From: Escherichia coli
GTDB lineage: Bacteria > Pseudomonadota > Gammaproteobacteria > Enterobacterales > Enterobacteriaceae
Direction: 5' to 3' (one strand)
Assembly (NCBI RefSeq): GCF_003018255.1
Contig: NZ_CP027440.1
DNA: 64,000 bases
Shown: piece after piece, positions 4,984 to 51,670 of the stretch
How the letters are laid out: every line of letters begins with the position of its first letter
Numbering within the stretch: the stretch's first letter is position 1
Notes under the pieces: model-generated
Told to the model about the DNA's origin: nothing
Seen by the model: the letters and a program-made list of their open reading frames with translations, nothing else
Database searches by the model: none
Translations under genes and position numbers: made by a program

Positions 4984-5059
4984 GGCCCTTTAGCTCAGTG
5001 GTGAGAGCGAGCGACTCATAATCGCCAGGTCGCTGGTTCAAATCCAGCAAGGGCCACCA
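4984..5059 (+). tRNA. tRNA with CAU anticodon, ileX/ileZ-like (Ile2 lysidine type; Met cannot be excluded)
   Basis: Hand-folded cloverleaf: acceptor GGCCCTT/AAGGGCC, D arm GCTC..GAGC, anticodon loop CTCATAA, T arm GCTGG-TTCAAAT-CCAGC, encoded CCA. Closely resembles my recollection of E. coli ileX. Confidence 0.85.
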
Positions 5060-5068
5060 TATCACATA

Positions 5069-5145
5069 CCGCCATTAGCTCATCGGGATAGAGCGCCAGC
5101 CTTCGAAGCTGGCTGCGCGGGGTTCGAGTCCTCGATGGCGGTCCA
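5069..5145 (+). tRNA. tRNA-Arg (UCG anticodon)
   Basis: Hand-folded cloverleaf: acceptor CCGCCAT/ATGGCGG, D arm GCTC..GAGC, anticodon stem CCAGC/GCTGG with loop CTTCGAA, T loop GGTTCGAGTCC, encoded CCA. Confidence 0.8.
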
Positions 5146-5906: not shown

Positions 5907-6164
5907 TGTGCTGTGAAGTGTTAAATCCCTCACAATTCAGTAAGTTGACAGTTGCCTGTCAGACTGAGCATTTGTTAAAAAAATTTCGCATGGTGAATCC
6001 CCCTGTGCGGAGGGGCGACTGGTGAACGGTATGATCTCTTTGATGATCGTAAGCGAGAATACGCGGGTTTGGTGTCACCGGGCTGAACTCACCGGGAGGC
6101 ACCCGGCACCATGCTCATGGTGATACAGAAATGCGGCTTCAGCCCCTCTCCGGAGGGGCTTTCT
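5907..6164 (+). ncRNA. solitary copy (unit A) of the ~250-bp structured-RNA unit
   Basis: Same four conserved boxes as the 7885-8904 array. Closing stem 5988-5995 GCATGGTG / 6107-6114 CACCATGC. Terminator GCCCCTC-TCCG-GAGGGGC at 6141-6157. Confidence 0.5.
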
Positions 6165-6170
6165 TATGGA

Positions 6171-6239
6171 CAAAAAAAGCCCGCGCTGGGAGACGCGGGC
6201 GGCAAGGAATAAACAATAAAACGTGAAGTAATACTTCAA
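6171..6239 (-). ncRNA. candidate small RNA, copy 1 (promoter to intrinsic terminator)
   Basis: Minus strand: TTGCGC (6275-6270), 18-bp spacer, TATTAT (6251-6246), then ~69 nt ending in GCCCGCG-TCTCCCAG-CGCGGGC plus U7. Paralogue at 8911-8989. Confidence 0.5.
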
Positions 6240-7884: not shown

Positions 7885-8904
7885 TGGAAATGTTAAATGA
7901 CTCACAATTCGGTTGATGGGCTATTGTCTGATCGATGGAAGTCTTGTAAAAACGAGCCAGCATAGTGAATCCCCCTGTGCGGAGGGGCGTCTGACATGGT
8001 CTCCATAGCGATGGTCACAATACGCAGATTCAGTAGTCAGGCTGAATCTACCGGGAGGCACCCGGCACTATGCTGCTTATGGTGTATACATAGCGATCGG
8101 CCCCTCTCCGGAGGGGCTTTTTTTGTGCGGGAAAAGGCTGTGTTGTTAAGTGTTAAATTCCTCACAGTTCGGATGGTTGATGCTTGCCTGTCTGAGGGGG
8201 AGTTGTTAAAAAAGTTCTGCATGGTGAATCCCCCTGTGCGGAGGGGCGACTGGTGTGATTTGCATCTTTTCTGTTGTAGGCAATGCAAACGCGGGTTCAG
8301 GGACGCCAGACTGGACTCACCGGGAGGCACCCGGCACCATGTTCATGATGATACAGATACGCAGTGTCAGCCCCTCTCCTGAGGGGCTTTTTTATGCAGG
8401 AAAAACGCTGTGTTGTGAAATGTTAAATTCCTCACAGTTCAGATGGTTGATGCTTGCCTGTCTGAGGGGGAGTTGTTAAAAAAGTTCTGCATGGTGAATC
8501 CCCCTGAGCGGAGGGGCATATCAGCGCAGGTGTTTCTACTCTATCCTTTCTGTGCGGGTTCAGGTGCTGATACTGAACTCACCGGGAGGCACCCGGCATC
8601 ATGCATATGGTTAACAGACACGTAGCGAAGCCCCTCTCCGGAGGGGCTTTTTTATGCAGGGAAAAGGCTGTGTTGTGAAATGTTAAATTCCTCACAATTC
8701 ATGAGGTTGATGATTGTCTGATTGATGAGGAGTTTGTTAAAAAAAACGGGCATGGTGAATCCCCCTGTGCGGAGGGGTGATATCGTATCATTTCCTGTGT
8801 GGCCGACTGATATCACGGACATTTGTTCACCGGGAGGCACCCGGCACCATGCAGTATACAGAGATTAGGCATACATCCAGGCTCCTCATCGCAGGAGCCT
8901 TTTT
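7885..8904 (+). repeat. tandem array of four ~240-270-bp structured-RNA units (B 7885-8124, C 8125-8393, D 8394-8653, E 8654-8904)
   Basis: Each unit has box 1 TGTTAAAT.CCTCACA(A/G)TTC, box 2 TTGTTAAAAAA..GCATGGTGAATCCCCCTGTGCGGAGGGGC, box 3 CACCGGGAGGCACCCGGCACCATG, and an intrinsic terminator with a T-run. The ORFs crossing the units differ in frame and length. Confidence 0.85.
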
Positions 8905-8910
8905 ACATGT

Positions 8911-31234: not shown

Positions 31235-32398
31235 ATGAAAAAAATGACAGTGGCACTTTCTGCTGTAGCAGTTGCAGTGATGTTTGCTGCGGGGGCGCAG
31301 GCAGCAGAAGTTTATAATAAAGATGGTAATAAACTGGATCTTTACGGGCGTGCAACCGCTCTGCATTACTTCTCGGATGATAAAGGTAATGACGGAGATC
31401 AGACTTATGCTCGTCTCGGCTTTAAAGGCGAAACGCAGATTAATGATCAACTGACCGGATTTGGTCAGTGGGAATACCAGTTCTCTGGTAACAAAACGGA
31501 ATCTGAAGGTTCCGCGGGAAATAAAACCCGTCTGGCATTTGCAGGTCTGAGATTTGCTGATGTTGGTAGCATTGATTACGGACGTAACTACGGTATTGCT
31601 TACGATGTCGGATCATATACTGACGTACTGCCAGAGTTTGGTGGTGATGGCTGGACTCAGACCGATAACTTTATGACTGCCCGAACTTCCGGAGTTCTGA
31701 CTTACCGTAATACAGATTTCTTTGGGCTGGTTGATGGTCTGAATTTTGCGGCGCAGTATCAGGGCAAAAATGAGCGCGATGACCTCCAGAAGGCCAATGG
31801 TGATGGGTATGGTTTCTCAGCCAGCTATGAGTTTGATGGTTTTGGTTTTGTGGCTGCGTATACCAAGTCAGATCGTACCAATAAGCAGGTTCAGGGACTG
31901 AATGGTAGCAAAACTATTGAAATCAAAGATCCTTTAACTGGGGATGTGACTGAAAAAGAAGTGGTCGTTGATTCCGGCAGCGTTGCAAAAGGTAAACATG
32001 CTGAATTCTGGGGAACTGGTCTTAAATATGATGCCAATAACCTGTATCTGGCAGCAGTGTATTCAGAAACCCAGAATATGACGACCTTTGGTGATCAAGG
32101 TGTTGCGGATAAAGCTCAGAATATCGAAGCCGTTGTTCAGTATCAGTTTGATTTTGGTCTGCGTCCGTCTCTGGCCTACCTTCAGTCCCGAGGACAGGAT
32201 GTTATGGTTGGTGGTGTGAACCATGGCGATCAGGATCTGGTTAAATATATTGATGTCGGTGCGACTTATTACTTTAACAAGAATATGTCCACCCATGTTG
32301 ATTATAAAATTAACCTGATTGAGGAAAGTGAATTTACCCGGAAAGCCGGTGTTGCGACAGATAATATCGTTGCTGTGGGTATGACTTATCAGTTCTGA
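31235..32398 (+). CDS. general-diffusion porin of the OmpC/OmpF/PhoE/NmpC family
   Basis: 387 aa. Signal peptide ...AQA|[15 protein letters not shown], then [21 protein letters not shown], and the C-terminal ...VAVGMTYQF typical of enterobacterial porins. Confidence 0.9.
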
Positions 32399-33317: not shown

Positions 33318-34061
33318 ATGACACAGACTGAATCAGCGATTCTGGCGCATGCCCGGCGGTGTGCGCCAGCGGAGTCGTGCGGCTTCGTGATAAGCACCCC
33401 GGAGGGGGAGCGGTACCAGCCCTGCGTGAATATCTCCGCAGAGCCGGAGGCGTATTTTCGTATTGCACCGGAAGACTGGCTGCAGGCACAGATGCAGGGG
33501 GAGATTGTGGCGCTGGTCCACAGTCATCCCGGTGGTCTGCCCTGGCTGAGCGAGGCGGACCGGCGGCTGCAGATAAAGAGTGCCCTGCCCTGGTGGCTGG
33601 TCTGTCGGGGTGAAATTCACCGGTTCCGCTGTGTGCCGCACCTGACCGGACGGCGCTTTGAACACGGTGTGACGGACTGTTACACCCTGTTCCGGGATGC
33701 ATACCATCTGGCGGGGATAACGCTGCCGGATTTTCATCGCGAGGATGACTGGTGGCGCAACGGCCAGAACCTGTACCTGGACAATATGGAGGCCACTGGC
33801 TTTTGCCGGGTGTCCCTGTCCTCTGCACAGGCAGGCGATATCCTGCTGTGCTGCTTTGGCGCATCGGTGCCGAATCATGCCGCCATTTACTGTGGCAACG
33901 GTGAGCTGCTTCACCATATACCTGAACAACTGAGTAAACGGGAGAGGTATTCTGAAAAATGGCAACGACGAACGCATTCTGTCTGGCGTCACCGCCACTG
34001 GTCCGCATCTGCCTTCACGGGGATTTACAACGATTTGGTCGCCGCATCAGTCTGTATGTGA
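33318..34061 (+). CDS. tail tip assembly protein K (MPN/JAB + NlpC/P60)
   Basis: 247 aa from ATG 33318 (MTQTESAILAHARRCAPAESCGFV...). Matches remembered lambda gpK. Confidence 0.92.
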   Translation: MTQTESAILAHARRCAPAESCGFVISTPEGERYQPCVNISAEPEAYFRIAPEDWLQAQMQGEIVALVHSHPGGLPWLSEADRRLQIKSALPWWLVCRGEIHRFRCVPHLTGRRFEHGVTDCYTLFRDAYHLAGITLPDFHREDDWWRNGQNLYLDNMEATGFCRVSLSSAQAGDILLCCFGASVPNHAAIYCGNGELLHHIPEQLSKRERYSEKWQRRTHSVWRHRHWSASAFTGIYNDLVAASVCM

Positions 34062-34603
34062 ACACGGCAGCGGAGGCCATCCGTGCCCTGTCGCAGCAGG
34101 TGCCGGGATTCCGCTGTCAGATGAACGAAGGCTGGTACCAGATACGTATTGCCGGTGAGGATACCGCGCCGGACCAGATATCGCCCCGACTGCATGAGCC
34201 ACTGAACCCGGGGGATGTCATTCATCTGGTTCCCCGGGCAGAAGGTGCCAAAAGTGGCGGAGTGTTTCAGGCCGTGCTTGGCGTTGCGCTGGTTGCGGCA
34301 GCTATCTGGATGCCGGGTATCGGTATTGCAGCCAGCAACATCATGTTTTCCATGGGCTCTGCAATGGCACTGGGTGGTGTGGCCCAGATGCTGGCCCCGA
34401 AGGCAAAGACGCCGGAGTACAAAAGCACGGATAACGGCAGACAGAACACGTATTTTTCGTCACTGGACAACATGATTGCTCAGGGGAATCCGGTGCCGGT
34501 GCCTTACGGTGAAATGCTGGTTGGTTCACGACGGATATCCCAGGACATCAGCACCCGTGATGAGGGCGGTGACGGGAAAGTGGTGGTTATCGGGCGGGGA
34601 TGA
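33959..34603 (+). CDS. tail tip assembly protein I
   Basis: 214 aa. ICLHGDLQRFGRRISL...GAKSGGVFQ...DNGRQNTYFSSLDNMIAQGNPVPVPYGEM matches remembered lambda gpI. Overlaps K, as in lambda. Confidence 0.9.
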   Translation: MATTNAFCLASPPLVRICLHGDLQRFGRRISLYVNTAAEAIRALSQQVPGFRCQMNEGWYQIRIAGEDTAPDQISPRLHEPLNPGDVIHLVPRAEGAKSGGVFQAVLGVALVAAAIWMPGIGIAASNIMFSMGSAMALGGVAQMLAPKAKTPEYKSTDNGRQNTYFSSLDNMIAQGNPVPVPYGEMLVGSRRISQDISTRDEGGDGKVVVIGRG

Positions 34604-35440
34604 AAAAAAATCCCGCAGTGTTCGGCGCCTGCGGGAAGAGATACGAAGATTAACTTTAAGGAATTTTTCATTATTCTGGCAGATGAACTGTAACGCAGCG
34701 TGATTATGAGCACTACAGTCAGTGTGCGGAAATGTGAATAAACTCAGAATTTTTATTCACCGGAAGAGGATTGCCGGATATCGGTGGCAGAGGACAGAAG
34801 GCATCATGCCGGGTTCAGGGGATAAAAAAATCCCGCAGAACTCCGTGCTGCGGGAAGAGAACGATGTTGACTAACCTGTTGGCGTTTTATTTTTATTGAC
34901 CCGCAGAAACTGTAACCTGCCGGAATGCACTCTGCCACGGAGAATGACGGAAAATGTGAAGAAAATCAGAGTTTTTATTTATCCCGTGCATTCGTCTCTG
35001 GCGACAGAGTGGCGTCAGTAATGTCCGTGATACTGAGGGGGGAATTAAAAAATCTCCCGTAATACACCTGGATATTGACGGGAGAAACGAATAGTCACCT
35101 TAAGGAGTAGTTTTGATTATTGCCTGTAATCAGCGGGCGAATTGTAACGTATGGTGATTATGAGTGCCACAGGTAATTTGCAGAAATGTGAATAAATTCA
35201 GAATTTTTATTCACAGGAAGGGGCTGCGGGATATTGGTGGCAGAGGACAGAAAATATCAGGCCGGGTTTAAGGGATAAAAAAATCCCGCAGAGTTAGCGG
35301 AGCTGCGGGAAATAAACGATGAAGATTAACGTTATGGAGTTATTTTTCAGGCATCAAAAAAGTAACGCAGCGTCATTATTGCGGCTACAGGCAATTTGCA
35401 GAAATGTGAAGAATTTCAGAAATTTTATTCCGTCATGACA
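34604..35440 (-). repeat. four tandem ~190-230-bp non-coding repeat units between I and J, each ending in a minus-strand intrinsic terminator
   Basis: Units at ~34604-34823, 34824-35045, 35046-35273 and 35274-35440. Terminator hairpins at 34611-34636, 34831-34856, 35053-35085 and 35284-35310, each with 6-8 A on the plus strand just upstream (a U-run on the minus strand). The shared core on the minus strand is TTCACATTT..GCA....CATAAT..CG.TGCGTTAC. Confidence 0.8.
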
Positions 35441-35470
35441 CAGGCACCCTCCGGGGTGCCTGTTGTTTTT
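35441..35470 (+). terminator. plus-strand intrinsic terminator 44 bp upstream of J
   Basis: CAGGCACCC-TCCG-GGGTGCCTG hairpin followed by TTGTTTTT. Confidence 0.7.
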
Positions 35471-35513
35471 GGGCATAAACAGATTCAGACATCAGACAGG
35501 AGAGGGGGACAGA

Positions 35514-38500
35514 GTGGGTAAAGGGGGCGGCAAGGGGCACACACCGCGTGAGGCGAAGGACAATCTCAAATCCACGCAGATGATGAGCGTGATTGATGCC
35601 ATCGGTGAGGGACCGGTGGAAGGCCCGGTGAAGGGACTGCAGAGTATTCTGGTGAACAAAACCCCGCTGACGGACACGGACGGTAATCCCGTGATACACG
35701 GTGTGACCGCCGTCTGGCGTGCCGGGGAGCAGGAGCAGACACCGCCGGAAGGCTTTGAGTCCTCCGGGGCGGAAACCGCACTGGGTGTGGAGGTGACGAA
35801 GGCAAAGCCGGTGACGCGCACCATCACGTCAGCGAACATTGACCGTCTGCGGGTCACCTTCGGGGTGCAGTCACTGGTGGAGACCAGCTCAAAGGGTGAC
35901 CGTAATCCCTCTTCTGTCCGGCTGCTGATTCAGCTTGAGCGTAACGGTAACTGGGGGACGGAGAAGGATGTCACCATTAACGGCAAGACCACCTCGCAGT
36001 ACCTGACGTCGGTGATTCTGAATAATCTCCCTGAGCGCCCCTTTAACATCCGGATGGTCAGGGTGACGGCGGACAGTACCACGGACCAGCTGCAGAACAG
36101 AACGCTGTGGTCGTCATACACCGAAATCATCGATGTGAAACAGTGCTACCCGAACACGGCCATTGTGGGGCTGCAGGTGGATGCGGAGCAGTTCGGTGGC
36201 CAGCAGATGGTGGTGAACTACCATATCCGCGGCCGCATCATTCAGGTGCCGTCAAACTATGACCCGGAAAAACGCACCTACAGCGGTATCTGGGACGGGA
36301 GTCTGAAACCGGCATACAGCAATAACCCGGCCTGGTGCCTGTGGGACATGCTGACCCACCCGCGCTACGGCATGGGAAAACGCCTGGGGGCGGCGGATGT
36401 GGACAAGTGGGCACTGTATGCCATCGGGCAGTACTGTGACCAGACGGTCCCGGATGGTTTCGGGGGCACAGAGCCGCGGATGACTTTCAATGCGTACCTG
36501 TCACAGCAGCGTAAGGTCTGGGATGTCCTGGGGGATTTCTGCTCGGCGATGCGCTGTATGCCGGTATGGAACGGCCAGACGCTGACGTTCGTTCAGGACC
36601 GTCCGTCGGATGTGGTGTGGCCGTACACCAACAGCGATGTGGTGGTGGATGATAACGGCGTGGGGTTCCGCTACAGCTTCAGTGCCCTGAAGGACCGGCA
36701 CACGGCGGTGGAGGTGAATTACACCGACCCGCAGAACGGCTGGCAGACTTCCACGGAACTGGTGGAAGACCCGGACGCCATCCTGCGCTACGGGCGCAAC
36801 CTGCTGAAGATGGACGCGTTCGGCTGTACCAGCCGCGGTCAGGCTCACCGTGCCGGACTGTGGGTGATAAAGACCGAACTGCTGGAAACGCAGACGGTGG
36901 ATTTCACGCTCGGGTCTCAGGGGCTGCGGCACACGCCCGGTGACATCATTGAAATCTGTGATAACGACTATGCCGGGACCCTGACCGGCGGACGCATCCT
37001 GTCCATTGATGCCGCCAGCCGCACACTGACGCTGGACCGTGAGGTGACACTGCCTGAGACAGGTACATCGACGGTGAACCTGATTAACGGCAGCGGTAAG
37101 CCGGTGCGCGTGGACATCACTGCACACCCCGCCCCTGACCGGATACAGGTCAGCGTCCTGCCTGATGGCGTGGCGACATACGGTGTGTGGGGACTCTCCC
37201 TGCCGTCACTGCGTCGTCGCCTGTTCCGCTGTGTTTCCATCCGGGAAAACACGGACGGCACCTTTGCCATCACGGCGGTGCAGCACGTACCGGAAAAAGA
37301 AGCCATTGTGGATAACGGGGCCCGCTTTGAGCCTATGTCCGGTTCACTGAACAGCGTCATCCCGCCGGCGGTGCAGCACCTCACGCTGGAGGTGAGCGCC
37401 TCAGACGGCCAGTATCTGGCGCTGGCGAAATGGGACACGCCGCGGGTGGTGAAGGGCGTGCGCTTCAGTCTGCGCCTGACCAGCGGAAACGGTGAAAACA
37501 GCCGCCTGGTGACCAGCGCCATCACGGCGGACACGGAGTACCGTTTCAGTGGCCTGCCGCTCGGGGAATACACCCTGACGGTCAGGGCGATAAACAGCTA
37601 CGGCCAGCAGGGCGAACCTGCCACCACCACATTCCGGATTAATGCACCGGCGGCACCGGCCAGCATTGAACTGACGCCGGGGTATTTTCAGATAACGGTG
37701 GTCCCGCATCCTGCGGTGTATGACCCGACGGTACAGTCTGAATTCTGGTTCTCAGAAAAACGCATCACGGACACGGCACAGGTGGAAACCTCTGCCCGTT
37801 ATCTGGGGACAGGCAGTCAGTGGAGTGTCTCCGGCCCGCACATTAAGCCCGGGAAGGATTTCTGGTTTTATGTGCGCAGCGTCAACCTGGTGGGGAAATC
37901 TGCGTTTGTGGAGGCCAGCGGGCAGGCCAGCAATGATGGTGAAGGGTATCTGGAAATTTTCCGTGGGCTGATAGATGAGGCGCAGCTGGGGAAGGCACTG
38001 AAAGAGCGTATTGATGCGTCAGCCCTGCGTACTGATGTCACGCAACTGGAAGAAGATATCCGCCAGCGACTGGAGACGGATGTTGCGGAAGTGACCCGAA
38101 AAATCGGGGAGGCGGAAAACAGCCTCACGCAGCTGGTTGCGAAAAAGAATGAGGACCAGACGCTGGCCATCGCGCAGGTGAGTCAGCAGGTGGACCGGGT
38201 GAGCAGTGAAATCACACAGACAGTCAGCCAGAGCACGGAGGAAAACGCCAGGCAGATAGCGCAGGTCCGCCAGTACGTGGATGACAAAGGGAGTGAAATC
38301 ACCTCGACCACGGATAAAAAGCTGGAAGACCAGAGCGCGACCATACAGCAGATACAGCAGGTCCAGTCAGACACGAATGATGAGCTGGCTGCGCTGTACA
38401 TGCTGAAGGTGCAGAAAACGAAAAACGGCATTCCGTATGTTGCCGGTATTGGTGCGGGGATTGAGGATGCTGATGGCCAGACGCTGAGCAATATTCTGCT

Positions 38501-39200
38501 GCAGGCGGACCGTATCGCAATGATTACCCCGGAGAACGGCAACACCACGCCGCTGTTTGTGGCACAGGGGAATCAGCTGTTCATGAACGACGTGTTCCTG
38601 AAGCGACTGTTTGCGGTGAGTATCACGTCATCCGGCAATCCCCCGACGTTTTCCCTGACGCCGGACGGCAGGCTGACGGCCCGCAATGCGGATATCAGCG
38701 GACATATCAGTGCGAACTCGGGCACGCTCAATAATGTCGTGATAGCGGAGAACTGTACGATAAATGGCACGCTGAAAGCGGAGAACATTATTGGTGATCT
38801 GGTGAAATGTGCAGGGGTGGCTTTTCCGGTGGATGGTAGTTACCTTGCGAACGGTACACGGACGCTGACGGTGTATGACGATCACAGCTTTGACCGGCAG
38901 ATTATAATCCCGCCGATAATCTATGTCGGGTCAAAACAGGAATCCCGCACCAGTAATGACATCTGGACAGAGTGCTTCCTGCATGTTGATCAGAACGGAC
39001 GCCGGATTTATTCAGGCAGGTCAGTGGCAGAGCCGGGAATTTTCAGCGGGATCATCGATATGCCAGCTGGCGGTGGTCATATCACCCTGAGTTTTACCGT
39101 GAGCTCACGGCGTCAGAATAACAGTTGGGGCAGTTCACGAATCAGTAACCTTCAGGCGATAGTGGTGAAGAAAAACAGCGCGGGGATCAGCATCCGCTGA
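35514..39200 (+). CDS. tail tip / host-specificity protein J
   Basis: 1228 aa from GTG 35514 ([22 protein letters not shown]..., SD GGAGAGGGGGA). Colinear with remembered lambda gpJ for ~1000 aa. The C-terminal receptor-binding part is divergent. Confidence 0.92.
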
Positions 39201-42660: not shown

Positions 42661-42714
42661 AACGATAACTCCGTACATTTGAAAATTATCGCCACCTTCA
42701 GGTTCCAATCATCA

Positions 42715-42791
42715 TGGTGGCGAACTGTGCGGGGTTGGAACTACCGGGTACGGAAACCGGCGAGCCTTTCGGCTCCCCCACACAGCCCGCC
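42715..42791 (-). ncRNA. C4-type antisense RNA (P1/P7 immI-like), 77 nt
   Basis: 16-bp closing stem GGCGGGCUGUGUGGGG/CCCCGCACAGUUCGCC followed by ACCA. Inner hairpins are GAGCC-GAAA-GGCUC and CCGG-UUUCCGUAC-CCGG. Single-stranded AGUUCCAA and the loop are complementary to sites flanking the element on both sides. Confidence 0.65.
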
Positions 42792-42824
42792 ATAAATCGC
42801 GAATGTGACTGTGCAAACGATATG

Positions 42825-42901
42825 AAAAAAGACGCGGGCGCGTCTCATATCGCTCCGTAAACATCCGGGGTTCCAATCCCGACGCCAGATTTTGCTGACG
42901 C
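42825..42901 (-). ncRNA. short terminated leader RNA carrying the a1/b1 decoy sites
   Basis: From the predicted TSS (~42901) to the terminator GACGC-GCCC-GCGUC plus U6 (42846-42825). Contains GAUUGGAACC (42878-42869) and UUACGGAG (42860-42853). Confidence 0.5.
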
Positions 42902-51555: not shown

Positions 51556-51583
51556 AAAAAAAAGCCCGCTCATTAGGCGGGCT
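51556..51583 (-). terminator. trp attenuator (3:4 terminator hairpin)
   Basis: Minus strand: AGCCCGCCTAATGAGCGGGCT followed by U8. Confidence 0.95.
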
Positions 51584-51625
51584 GGGTATCTGATTGCTTT
51601 ACGCATGGTGAATACACTGCCCGTT

Positions 51626-51670
51626 TCAGGAAGTGCGCCACCAACCTTTCAGTACGAAAATTGCTTTCAT
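51626..51670 (-). CDS. trpL: trp operon leader peptide
   Basis: Minus strand ATGAAAGCAATTTTCGTACTGAAAGGTTGGTGGCGCACTTCCTGA = [14 protein letters not shown], with the tandem Trp codons. Confidence 0.97.

What the first reader, a model, noticed from the sequence alone, without database searches (positions are those of the whole stretch)
34604..35513. 910-bp non-coding insertion between tail genes I and J made of four tandem repeats, each with a minus-strand terminator
In lambda, I and J are adjacent. Here they are separated by four ~190-230-bp units. Read on the minus strand (antisense to the late operon), each unit contains:
- A 9-bp perfect inverted repeat GTGAATAAA-N9-TTTATTCAC (units 1 and 3; degenerate in 2 and 4).
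- A conserved block TTCACATTTCTGCAAAT..CCTGT.GC.CTCATAATCAC with a -10-like CATAAT.
- A conserved GCGTTACA.
- A semi-conserved CUCCUUAA(A/G)GUUAAUCUUC segment, which contains an anti-Shine-Dalgarno-like CUCCUU.
- A strong hairpin followed by U6-U8.
Three units use the stem CCCGCAG/CTGCGGG with unrelated loops. Unit 3 uses a completely different stem (TCTCCCGT/ACGGGAGA, 35053-35085) at the same place, so the terminator structure rather than its sequence is maintained. No ORF is conserved between units; I checked both strands by hand. A plus-strand terminator (35441-35470) closes the region just before J. This looks like an array of ~100-120-nt antisense-oriented sRNA genes embedded in the tail operon. 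The -35 elements are weak, so the promoter assignment is uncertain.
Basis: partly seen in the sequence, partly recalled or inferred. Interest (0 to 1): 0.7.

Follow-up and report, generated by a model that had tools for sequence, protein, structure and literature searches.

The report
Four tandem PasB-type prophage sRNA genes
The 910-bp gap between tail genes I and J of this Shiga-toxin-type E. coli prophage holds four diverged, head-to-tail copies of a known Hfq-dependent small-RNA gene (PasB in EPEC, EcOnc22-24 in EHEC), and this stacked arrangement was not found in the published surveys read here.

Summary
The spacer 34604-35513 lies between tail assembly gene I and tip gene J. It consists of four ~220-bp units. 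On the minus strand, each unit has a conserved upstream block, a promoter and a strong hairpin followed by a U-tract.

The units are not a new kind of element. They are homologues of PasB (EPEC E2348/69) and EcOnc22/23/24 (EHEC Sakai). I mapped both to the same I-J spacer, antisense to the tail operon. Both were detected on northern blots at ~83-85 nt and lose stability without Hfq.

- The -10 element is most likely the TAnnnT hexamer inside the conserved "GTTACAGT" block, not CATAAT.
- The predicted RNAs are 76-88 nt, not 100-120 nt.
- The unit 3 terminator is a variant of the common stem with compensatory changes, not an unrelated stem.

What appears new is the array. Most prophages carry one unit; a few carry two, three or four, drawn from at least 15 RNA classes. 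The four units here are only 62-74% identical, and their putative seed regions differ.

A CRP-like site sits at -60.5 in 67 of the 71 distinct units. This suggests an activator-dependent promoter, but that is untested.

The parts
33959..34603 (+). Tail assembly gene I (context). Its stop codon TGA is at 34601-34603. The U-tract of sRNA unit 1 abuts, and shares one base with, this stop codon.
   Evidence: ORF list. A 100% identical RefSeq record annotates it as 'tail assembly protein'.
34603..34680 (-). Unit 1 predicted sRNA (class A, 78 nt). +1 is the G at 34680. The terminator hairpin is at 34611-34636, followed by U8. The single-stranded region reads AAUUCCUUAAAGUUAAUCUUCGU.
   Evidence: hairpin in MFE and centroid; E = 7.4e-35 with the independent HMM.
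34687..34748 (-). Unit 1 promoter region. The perfect inverted repeat GTGAATAAA-N9-TTTATTCAC spans 34734-34760.
34824..34902 (-). Unit 2 predicted sRNA (class B, 79 nt). +1 is the G at 34902. The terminator hairpin is at 34831-34855, followed by U7. The single-stranded region differs from the other units: AACGCCAACAGGUUAGUCAACAU.
   Evidence: (E = 5.2e-26).
34909..34970 (-). Unit 2 promoter region. It holds the -10 TACAGT (34914-34909) and the CRP-like site (34970-34955, centre -60.5). The upstream CATAAT-equivalent is degenerate (GTGCAT).
35047..35134 (-). Unit 3 predicted sRNA (class C, 88 nt). +1 is the G at 35134. The terminator variant UCUCCCGU...ACGGGAGA is at 35053-35085, followed by U6. 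The single-stranded region reads ACUCCUUAAGGUGACUAUUCGU.
   Evidence: (E = 2.4e-23).
35141..35215 (-). Unit 3 promoter region. It holds GTGGCA-18-TACAAT, the only sigma-70-like match in the region found by the consensus scan, and the CRP-like site (35202-35187, centre -60.5). The perfect 10-bp inverted repeat has arms at 35187-35196 and 35206-35215.
   Evidence: (I10).
35277..35352 (-). Unit 4 predicted sRNA (class D, 76 nt). It is ~95% identical to a single-copy allele of the class that includes EHEC Sakai EcOnc22-24. +1 is the G at 35352. The terminator hairpin is at 35284-35310, followed by U7.
   Evidence: z = -3.3; E = 4.5e-47.
35359..35420 (-). Unit 4 promoter region. It holds the -10 TACTTT (35364-35359) and the CRP-like site (35420-35405, centre -60.5).
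35440..35473 (+). Plus-strand (late-operon direction) intrinsic-terminator-like hairpin ACAGGCACCC-UCCG-GGGUGCCUGU followed by UGUUUUUGGG. It lies between the array and J. The same kind of element is the only content of the lambda I-J spacer.
   Evidence: It is conserved in E2348/69 and Sakai with loop changes.
35514..39200 (+). Tail tip / host-specificity gene J (context). It starts with GTG at 35514.

Best explanation
The I-J spacer of this lambdoid STEC prophage is a cargo ('moron') site. It carries four independent, tandem genes for PasB/EcOnc22-family small RNAs, all transcribed antisense to the late tail operon.

Each unit has the same fixed architecture:
- a strongly conserved upstream block with a CRP-like site (TCTGA-N6-TCACA) centred at -60.5;
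- a weak -35;
- a TAnnnT -10;
- a G start;
- a 76-88-nt, largely unstructured, A/U-rich body;
- a Rho-independent terminator preceded by a U-rich stretch, which is the usual Hfq-binding 3' module.

By homology with PasB and EcOnc22, the RNAs are made in the lysogen, are stabilised by Hfq and act in trans by base-pairing with host and island mRNAs.

The four copies are old, diverged siblings (62-74% identical). Their single-stranded, putative seed regions differ: UUAAUCUUC in units 1 and 4, UUAGUCAAC in unit 2, and GUGACUAUUC in unit 3. The array therefore probably widens the target range rather than only raising dosage.

The array was most likely assembled by unequal recombination between prophages that carry different alleles at the same site. 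The conserved promoter block and terminator would serve as crossover anchors.

What is shown:
- homology, position, orientation and architecture;
- copy-number polymorphism across prophages;
- published expression and Hfq dependence of the single-copy homologues.

What is inferred:
- expression of units 1-3;
- trans-acting function;
- seed diversification as the benefit;
- control by CRP or another activator.
For: Homology:
- An HMM from 35 single-copy units of other prophages hits all four window units and nothing else in the window (E = 4.5e-47 to 2.4e-23).

Same locus as validated sRNAs:
- PasB maps between I (ends 1466255) and J (starts 1466496) in E2348/69.
- EcOnc22/23/24 map to the I-J spacers of Sakai Sp15, Sp14 and Sp11. 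This holds after correcting a ~+137 to +143 coordinate offset, calibrated on AsxR and AgvB1.

Published experiments:
- PasB gives an ~83-nt northern band. Its log2 fold change in the hfq deletion strain is -6.8 and -2.4 in the two conditions. It has 37 RIL-seq interactions.
- EcOnc22 gives a ~85-nt band and is destabilised without hfq.

Architecture kept despite divergence:
- TAnnnT is present in 71/71 distinct units.
- xxTGA-N6-TCACA is present in 71/71, with its centre at -60.5 in 67/71.
- The sequence between these elements varies freely.
- The predicted +1 equals the reported PasB 5' end.

RNA features:
- Terminator hairpins appear in the MFE and centroid folds of all four units.
- The terminator has an invariant CCCG/CGGG core and two compensated inner pairs.

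Copy number and shuffling:
- In the I-protein-based sample, 64 sequences had one unit, 8 had two, 3 had three and 11 had four; the 11 include the window itself and one RefSeq copy of it.
- In a promoter-block-based sample of 120 contigs there were 112 single arrays, 4 double, 2 triple (both cut by contig ends) and 1 quadruple.
- Array compositions include D, F, E, K-J, D-J, B-D, M-N, K-M-N, D-M-N and A-B-C-D, drawn from at least 15 body classes.
- The same A-B-C-D array sits next to I genes only ~78-82% identical to the window's (L022 and L023).

The array is not an assembly artefact: 78 complete E. coli genomes contain at least 80% of the 1-kb query.

The site takes other antisense cargo: sodC sits in the 855-bp spacers.
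Against: - No transcript data exist for this strain or for units of classes A, B and C. Only class D (EcOnc22-24) and class F (PasB) have been seen on northern blots.
- The -35 elements are weak, so the promoters may need an activator or may be silent.
- Covariation support is modest. Most stem pairs never vary, and the sequences are closely related.
- No target or phenotype is published for any member. The review PMC7873438 lists EcOnc22 as function unknown.
- Overall folding z-scores of units 1-3 are unremarkable (-0.6 to -1.6). This is normal for Hfq sRNAs with unstructured bodies, but it gives no support either.
- The CRP reading rests on a 9/10 core match in which the first G of TGTGA is replaced by C. 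The predicted centre is one base pair off the canonical -61.5.
Confidence: 0.75

Rival explanations
1. Only the J-proximal unit (unit 4, the Sakai-type allele) is a working sRNA gene. Units 1-3 are passenger copies left by unequal recombination between prophages and are silent or decaying.
For: - Multi-unit arrays are a minority: about 6% of spacers in the promoter-block sample, and 78 of 807 matching genomes carry the 4-unit array.
- The strong upstream TATAAT-like element seen in PasB is degenerate in unit 2 (GTGCAT).
- Only classes D and F have published northern blots.
- The -35 hexamers are poor.
Against: - All four units keep every architectural element at fixed spacing, despite 26-38% divergence from one another. 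These elements are TAnnnT, the G at +1, the CRP-like site at -60.5, an intact hairpin and at least six U residues.
- Decaying copies would be expected to lose terminators or spacing first.
- Classes A and C-like (H) also occur as the sole unit in other prophages. They can therefore be the only sRNA gene at the site.
Confidence: 0.15
2. The array acts mainly in cis on the phage late transcript. The RNAs are perfectly complementary to the I-J spacer of the late mRNA. They could direct RNase III or RNase E cleavage or block read-through, tuning J expression or silencing leaky tail-gene expression in the lysogen. Together with the plus-strand terminator they would insulate J.
For: - The genes are antisense to a transcribed operon spacer.
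- A strong plus-strand terminator sits immediately upstream of J. It is ancestral at this site, because lambda has it alone.
- Pearl Mizrahi et al. mark PasB as overlapping, in antisense, the region assigned to the upstream gene (Table S6 notation).
Against: - The sRNAs stop exactly at the I stop codon. They do not overlap either coding region or the J ribosome-binding site.
- PasB has 37 trans partners in RIL-seq and is Hfq-dependent. This is typical of trans-acting sRNAs.
- Lambda and the sodC-carrying phages manage I-J expression without the units.
- The 1-4 copy variation and the different classes give no obvious cis logic.
Confidence: 0.1
3. The transcripts start at the first reader's promoter (-10 CATAAT/TATAAT with -35 TTCACA-like). 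This would give ~92-104-nt primary RNAs that are then trimmed, or the two tandem promoters are both used.
For: - E2348/69 has a near-consensus TTCACA-16-TATAAT at this position.
- 62 of 71 units have a TATAAT-like hexamer there.
Against: - The hexamer is GTGCAT or AACCTT in 9 of 71 units, including window unit 2.
- The -35 is poor in the window units (TTCCGC, TTCTGC).
- The published 5' end and size of PasB (83 nt) and EcOnc22 (~85 nt) fit the downstream TAnnnT start, not a ~99-nt RNA.
Confidence: 0.15
4. The spacer is a degraded protein-coding moron or a generic repeat element (REP or MITE-like) with no RNA product of its own.
For: Other prophages carry a real gene (sodC) at this site.
Against: - No ORF longer than 50 aa is present, none is conserved between units, and none matches Pfam.
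- Indels between units are not in multiples of three.
- The units occur only at the I-J spacer.
- The homologues are experimentally detected sRNAs.
Confidence: 0.01

Closest known systems
PasB (pathogenicity-associated sRNA B) of EPEC O127:H6 E2348/69. Sources: Pearl Mizrahi et al. 2021, Sci Adv, PMC8550237; Zhu, Shabalina and Storz 2026, bioRxiv 10.64898/2026.05.13.724894.
   Same: - Same locus (I-J spacer), same antisense orientation, same promoter block and same CCCGCAG/CUGCGGG terminator with U7.
- The published northern probe AATCCCGCAGTGATCGCGGAGCT nearly matches the unit 4 terminator.
- The profile built from single-copy members hits all four units.
   Different: - PasB proper (class F) is a single gene per prophage.
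- The window has four diverged siblings (classes A-D), none of them class F.
- A word-size-28 BLAST with PasB finds nothing in the window.
- The 2026 survey reports a minimum distance of 28 kb between pasB copies. It states that PasA and PasD duplicates did not arise by tandem duplication.
EcOnc22/EcOnc23/EcOnc24 of EHEC O157:H7 Sakai (Tree et al. 2014, Mol Cell, PMC4104026, Table S2).
   Same: - They are Hfq-CRAC peaks in the I-J spacers of Sp15, Sp14 and Sp11, antisense to the tail genes.
- EcOnc22 is ~85 nt and is destabilised without hfq.
- They belong to the same RNA class (D) as window unit 4, which is ~95% identical to a single-copy class D allele.
   Different: - There is one copy per prophage in Sakai.
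- Function is listed as unknown.
- The papers read here do not link EcOnc22-24 to PasB: PasB's entry in the 2021 table carries no EHEC-homologue note, and the only indexed paper naming EcOnc22 is a review that lists it with no function.
Tandem 'sibling' sRNA genes: OmrA/OmrB (E. coli), PrrF1/PrrF2 (Pseudomonas), LhrC1-4 (Listeria). This comparison rests on my own knowledge. OmrA/B and PrrF1/2 are cited as examples in the 2026 preprint.
   Same: - Adjacent, same-orientation homologous sRNA genes.
- Each has its own promoter and terminator.
- They share 3' Hfq/terminator modules and have partly diverged pairing regions.
   Different: - Those arrays are chromosomal core genes with fixed copy number.
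- This one is prophage cargo inside a structural operon.
- It varies from 1 to 4 copies, and its composition is shuffled among at least 15 classes.
AgvB/AsxR anti-sRNAs and STnc100/PasD (other lambdoid-prophage sRNAs).
   Same: - They are prophage-encoded, Hfq-binding, and sited at cargo positions in conserved prophage locations.
- They have variable 5' and conserved 3' modules.
- STnc100 is itself present as a 4-copy tandem array in this window.
   Different: - They lie at a different locus, downstream of PR' and Q rather than in the tail operon.
- There is no sequence or structure match: the Rfam AgvB, AsxR and STnc100 models do not hit the I-J spacer.

Membership tests
PasB / EcOnc22-24 sRNA family (no Rfam model exists) | Located in the spacer between lambdoid tail genes I and J, on the strand opposite to the tail operon. 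| tested here: met
   Window. E2348/69 PasB. Sakai EcOnc22-24.
PasB / EcOnc22-24 sRNA family (no Rfam model exists) | Sequence homology to established members over the promoter plus the RNA. | tested here: met
   The HMM from 35 single-copy units (no array members) gives E = 4.5e-47, 7.4e-35, 5.2e-26 and 2.4e-23 for units 4, 1, 2 and 3, with no other hit in 64 kb.
PasB / EcOnc22-24 sRNA family (no Rfam model exists) | 3' Rho-independent terminator with a CCCG...CGGG stem core and at least six U residues, preceded by a U-rich single-stranded stretch. | tested here: met
   The core pairs are invariant in 31/31 aligned sequences. The unit 3 variant keeps the core.
PasB / EcOnc22-24 sRNA family (no Rfam model exists) | A stable transcript of about 80-85 nt is detected. 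| not testable with these tools
   Predicted lengths are 76-88 nt. There are no expression data for this strain.
PasB / EcOnc22-24 sRNA family (no Rfam model exists) | Hfq binding and Hfq-dependent stability. | not testable with these tools
   Shown for PasB and EcOnc22 only.
Any curated Rfam family | A covariance-model match at or near the gathering score. | tested here: not met
   No relevant hit at E <= 1 in 33500-36500, and none at gathering score in the whole window.
Tandem sibling sRNA arrays (OmrA/B, PrrF1/2, LhrC type) | Two or more homologous sRNA genes, adjacent and co-oriented, each with its own promoter and terminator. | tested here: met
   Four units, each with a -10, a +1 and a terminator by sequence. 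Independent transcription is inferred, not shown.
Class I CRP-dependent promoter | A 22-bp CRP site with the TGTGA-N6-TCACA core. | tested here: inconclusive
   TCTGA-N6-TCACATTT matches 9/10 core positions, with a perfect right half. It is present in 71/71 units (69 with TCTGA, 2 with TATGA). Only 9 such sites with at most one mismatch occur in the 64-kb window, against 2.0 expected, and all lie upstream of sRNA genes. The first G of the left half-site is replaced.
Class I CRP-dependent promoter | Site centred near -61.5 (or -71.5, -82.5 and so on) from the transcription start. | tested here: inconclusive
   The centre is at -60.5 from the predicted +1 in 67/71 units and at -61.5 in 3. The +1 is predicted. 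It is supported within about ±1-4 nt by the published PasB 5' end and the EcOnc22 peak.
Class I CRP-dependent promoter | Transcription depends on cAMP-CRP. | not testable with these tools
   Only indirect evidence exists. PasB is higher in overnight static LB than in exponential DMEM. That also fits stationary-phase or low-oxygen control.

The most novel reading that the evidence does not exclude
The I-J spacer of lambdoid prophages is a hypervariable sRNA cassette locus. Recombination between co-resident prophages stacks alleles of one Hfq-sRNA family into arrays of up to four siblings with different seeds. All are driven by one shared, rigidly spaced activator-dependent promoter, with cAMP-CRP as the leading candidate. 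A single nutritional signal would then release a strain-specific set of regulators into the host network.

A more speculative extension follows from the fact that each sibling is perfectly antisense to the late mRNA of any phage carrying that allele. A stacked array could then also interfere with tail production by related superinfecting or co-resident phages.
Probability: 0.25. Interest if true: 0.65.

Novelty: new variant of a known kind. Interest (0 to 1): 0.45.

Why it matters
- **It links two literatures.** EcOnc22-24 in EHEC and PasB in EPEC are one family at one fixed prophage position. The family has no Rfam model and no RefSeq annotation, so it goes unseen in genome annotation.

- **Copy number and diversity have probably been underestimated.** BLAST with the E2348/69 sequence at word size 28 finds none of the four genes here. 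The 4-gene array is present in at least 78 of 5,426 complete E. coli genomes. The best-matching genomes come largely from cattle and human stool and include serotypes such as O113:H21, O91 and O22:H8.

- **It offers a natural experiment in sRNA evolution.** The siblings share promoter and terminator modules but differ in pairing regions, and they are shuffled between prophages.

- **It gives a concrete regulatory hypothesis.** An invariant CRP-like site at fixed distance can be tested with simple promoter fusions.

- **The same prophage carries a second 4-copy sRNA array** (STnc100). Tandem amplification of regulatory RNAs may therefore be a recurrent feature of these phages.

Tried and rejected
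- **Rfam.** An E-value search of the region and a gathering-score search of the whole window gave no family for the spacer.
- **TRF.** It did not detect the array because the units are too diverged.
- **AgvB/AsxR anti-sRNAs.** This was my first guess from memory. I rejected it because they lie at a different locus (downstream of PR') and share no sequence match.
- **EcOnc candidates in Sakai Sp6, Sp9 and the Sp15 end.** EcOnc54, 49 and 47 were not at I-J junctions. In Sp6 the I-J region is replaced by espX7.
- **Tree 2014 coordinates.** Taken at face value, they put the EcOnc22 peak upstream of the promoter. Calibration with AsxR and AgvB1 showed a +137 to +143 offset relative to NC_002695.2.
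- **GTDB species representatives.** The scan with the I protein gave only E. albertii (contig cut at the I end) and two obvious contaminant contigs. It says little about host range.
- **Other upstream-block readings.** ArgR box, OmpR, Fur, FNR and sigma-S readings were considered by eye and dropped as poorer fits than CRP. None was tested.
- **Coding potential.** No Pfam match was found for the spacer ORFs.
- **Not attempted.** I did not read PasB's individual RIL-seq partners out of Table S3, because of look-up limits. I did not try target prediction for the four siblings, because no host genome was in hand.
Full report
**1. The observation**

The I open reading frame ends with TGA at 34601-34603, and J starts with GTG at 35514. 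A 100% identical RefSeq record annotates the flanking genes as 'tail assembly protein' and 'phage attachment tail tip protein J', with nothing annotated between them.

The 910-bp spacer consists of four units:
- The repeat finder reports 4-copy families spaced 222, 232 and 218 bp apart. It also reports a weaker two-unit periodicity of ~454 bp.
- Tandem Repeats Finder misses the array, because the units are only 62-74% identical.
- A profile built solely from 35 single-copy spacers of other prophages finds exactly four matches in the 64-kb window. All are on the minus strand, with E = 4.5e-47 to 2.4e-23.

The listed motifs, the four minus-strand hairpin-plus-U-tract terminators and the plus-strand terminator before J are all present. 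No ORF exceeds 50 aa, and none matches Pfam. The region is not an assembly artefact: 78 complete E. coli genomes carry at least 80% of the 1-kb query at 98.8-100% identity among the listed hits.

**2. What it is**

Rfam has no model that matches, but the literature does.

*PasB.* Pearl Mizrahi et al. 2021 (PMC8550237, Table S6) list PasB of EPEC E2348/69 at NC_011601 1466343..1466261 on the minus strand. It is 83 nt and lies in prophage PP6. The northern probe is AATCCCGCAGTGATCGCGGAGCT. In the RefSeq record, that interval lies between a tail assembly protein gene ending at 1466255 and gpJ starting at 1466496. The probe is almost the complement of the unit 4 terminator. The E2348/69 spacer aligns with each window unit from the upstream block to the U-tract.

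*EcOnc22/23/24.* Tree et al. 2014 (PMC4104026, Table S2) list these as homologous Hfq-CRAC peaks in Sakai prophages Sp15, Sp14 and Sp11. EcOnc22 gives a ~85-nt northern band that is destabilised without hfq.
- All three map to I-J spacers on the strand opposite the tail genes.
- Each spacer contains one unit of the class that also includes window unit 4.
- Their published coordinates are ~137-143 nt lower than NC_002695.2. I calibrated this with AsxR and AgvB1.
- After correction, the EcOnc22 peak runs from about the predicted +1 to the terminator.

PasB drops strongly in the hfq deletion strain (log2 fold change -6.8 and -2.4) and has 37 RIL-seq interactions. The family is already known under two names. 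Those names are not connected in the papers I read: PasB's table entry has no EHEC-homologue note, and the only indexed paper naming EcOnc22 is a review listing it as function unknown.

**3. Anatomy and corrections**

I compared 71 distinct units from 86 sequences.

*Upstream block.* The most conserved stretch is not the RNA but an upstream block, AATAAAAnTTCTGAnnTnnTTCACATTT.

*The -10 element.*
- The hexamer inside the conserved 'GTTACAGT' block is TAnnnT in 71 of 71 units: TACAGT 28, TACTTT 15, TAGTGT 6, and others.
- T1, A2 and T6 are the invariant columns, which is the signature of a sigma-70 -10 element.
- Seven nucleotides downstream lies a nearly invariant G. In E2348/69 this falls within one base of the published PasB 5' end.
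It is TATAAT-like in most units, but GTGCAT or AACCTT in 9 of 71, including window unit 2.
- An RNA started from CATAAT would be ~92-104 nt, which does not fit the 83-85-nt northern bands. It may be a second promoter, and I rate that at 0.15.

*Predicted RNAs on the minus strand.*

| Unit | Start | End | Length |
|---|---|---|---|
| 4 | 35352 | 35277 | 76 nt |
| 3 | 35134 | 35047 | 88 nt |
| 2 | 34902 | 34824 | 79 nt |
| 1 | 34680 | 34603 | 78 nt |

Each folds into a mostly open, A/U-rich body plus the terminator.

*Terminator.* The CCCG/CGGG core is invariant in 31 of 31 aligned sequences. The next two pairs show compensated changes: C-G 26, U-A 3 and U-G 2 at one; G-C 24 and A-U 5 at the other. 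The unit 3 stem is therefore a homologous variant, not an unrelated stem. Covariation support is real but modest.

**4. The upstream block as an activator site (inference)**

- TCTGA-N6-TCACATTT matches the CRP core at 9 of 10 positions, with a perfect right half-site.
- It is present in 71 of 71 units (69 with TCTGA, 2 with TATGA). Its centre lies 60.5 bp upstream of the predicted +1 in 67 of 71, although the intervening sequence varies freely.
- In the whole window, TGTGA-N6-TCACA with at most one mismatch occurs nine times against 2.0 expected. Four are in these units. The other five lie ~40 nt upstream of each STnc100 copy.
- The -35 hexamers are poor, as expected for an activator-dependent promoter.
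- PasB is higher in overnight static LB than in exponential DMEM. This fits catabolite control, but equally fits stationary-phase or oxygen effects.

I treat CRP as the leading candidate only, at about 0.35. The left half-site lacks the first G, and the canonical class I position is -61.5.

**5. The array is the new part**

*Copy number.*
- In the I-protein-based sample, 64 sequences had one unit, 8 had two, 3 had three and 11 had four. The 11 include the window itself and a RefSeq copy of it.
- In a second sample of 120 IMG/VR contigs, found through the promoter block, there were 112 single arrays, 4 double, 2 triple (both cut by contig ends) and 1 quadruple.
- No array had more than four units.

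*Composition.* Clustering the RNA bodies at 85% identity gives at least 15 classes. Observed compositions include D, F, E, A, H, K-J, D-J, B-D, M-N, E-J, K-M-N, D-M-N and A-B-C-D. The same class appears alone, I-proximal or J-proximal in different prophages.

*Mobility.* The A-B-C-D array also occurs next to I genes only ~78-82% identical to the window's (L022 and L023). This pattern suggests alleles stacked by unequal recombination between related prophages, not recent in-place duplication.

*Seed differences.* Zhu et al. propose the stretch just upstream of the terminator as the PasB seed. In the window it reads GUUAAUCUUC in units 1 and 4, GUUAGUCAAC in unit 2, and GUGACUAUUC in unit 3. A second conserved block, AACUCC(U/A)U, is CGCCAA in unit 2.

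*Why the published survey would miss the array.* The 2026 survey used BLAST with the E2348/69 sequence. It reports a minimum distance of 28 kb between pasB copies and states that PasA and PasD duplicates did not arise by tandem duplication. With word size 28, that query finds nothing in this window.

**6. Context of the site**

- Lambda has a 60-bp I-J spacer that holds only a plus-strand hairpin with a U-tract.
- In PasB-bearing phages, the sRNA units sit between the I stop codon and this ancestral plus-strand terminator.
- Other prophages carry an antisense Cu,Zn superoxide dismutase gene (sodC) plus a partial PasB-like unit at the same place. Still others carry an extra antisense terminator element.
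- The I-J spacer is therefore a general antisense cargo site.
- On the plus strand, the sRNA hairpins are preceded rather than followed by the A/T run. They should not terminate late transcription.

**7. Mechanism, rivals and verdict**

*Best explanation (0.75).* The spacer holds four independent PasB-family, Hfq-dependent, trans-acting sRNA genes. They share promoter architecture and have diverged pairing regions.

*Rivals.*
- Only unit 4 is active, and the other units are recombination passengers (0.15). The retention of every promoter and terminator element at fixed spacing despite 26-38% divergence argues against this.
- The array has a mainly cis-antisense or insulating role on the late transcript (0.10). 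This could coexist with the trans role.
- The upstream promoter is used instead of, or together with, the downstream one (0.15).
- The spacer is a degraded gene or generic repeat (0.01).

*Limits.* No function or target is published for any family member. No expression data exist for classes A-C.

*Verdict.* The finding is a correct call on a known but under-annotated sRNA family, in an apparently unreported tandem, seed-diversified arrangement. I rate it a new variant of a known kind, of moderate interest.

Noticed in passing
window 5959-6171 and 7931-8910 (+): There are five STnc100 (RF02076, the PasD-related family) copies. Four form a second tandem sRNA array with a period of ~265 bp: 7931-8126, 8190-8399, 8460-8659 and 8721-8910. 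Bit scores are 120-172 against a gathering score of 47.
   Followed up: partly
window 5919-5934, 7891-7906, 8151-8166, 8421-8436, 8681-8696 (+): A CRP-like motif, TGTTA-N6-TCACA, lies ~40 nt upstream of each STnc100 copy. Together with the four PasB-type units, these are the only matches with at most one mismatch in the 64-kb window (9 found, 2.0 expected).
   Followed up: no
window 31235-32398 (+): A 387-aa OmpC-like porin ORF sits just upstream of tail gene L. The identical RefSeq record annotates it as 'porin OmpC'. It looks like a cargo gene inside the tail operon.
   Followed up: no
window 42713-42797 and 42825-42901 (-): A C4 antisense RNA (RF01695) and isrK (RF01394) lie next to each other downstream of the tail genes.
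   Followed up: no
window 51556-51649 (-); tRNAs at 4984-5056 and 5069-5142 (+): A trp operon leader is present, so host chromosome begins before ~51.5 kb and the prophage lies near trp. Two tRNA genes lie near the STnc100 region.
   Followed up: no
L049 3678-4534 (also L045, L065, L075, L080, L082): In these prophages the I-J spacer is 855 bp. It carries an antisense Cu,Zn superoxide dismutase (sodC-like) ORF with its own terminator, followed by a partial PasB-like unit that keeps the -10 and terminator but lacks the upstream CRP-like block.
   Followed up: partly
L050 3678-4025 (also L051, L054, L064, L067, L071, L072): In these 345-bp spacers the plus-strand terminator is replaced by a different antisense-oriented hairpin with a U-tract (AAACCCCGGTATCAGCAGATACCGGGGTTTTCTTTC), upstream of a class F (PasB-type) unit. 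It may be another small transcript.
   Followed up: no
L005 (NZ_JBHTEB010000006.1, 'Streptomyces flavalbus') and L006 (NZ_FWPT01000051.1, 'Parendozoicomonas haliclonae'): Short contigs in these non-enterobacterial assemblies encode a lambdoid tail assembly protein I (72-86% identical) plus a PasB-type unit. They are almost certainly E. coli or phage contamination of the assemblies.
   Followed up: no
NC_002695.2 versus Tree et al. 2014 Table S2: The published EcOnc coordinates are ~137 nt (AsxR) to ~139-143 nt (AgvB1) lower than in the current RefSeq Sakai record. Anyone mapping EcOnc peaks onto NC_002695.2 must shift them.
   Followed up: yes
L090 (Sakai Sp6, NC_002695.2 1578200-1581500): In prophage Sp6, tail assembly gene I is truncated (186 bp). 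It is followed by the effector-like gene espX7 in place of J. No PasB-type unit is present.
   Followed up: no
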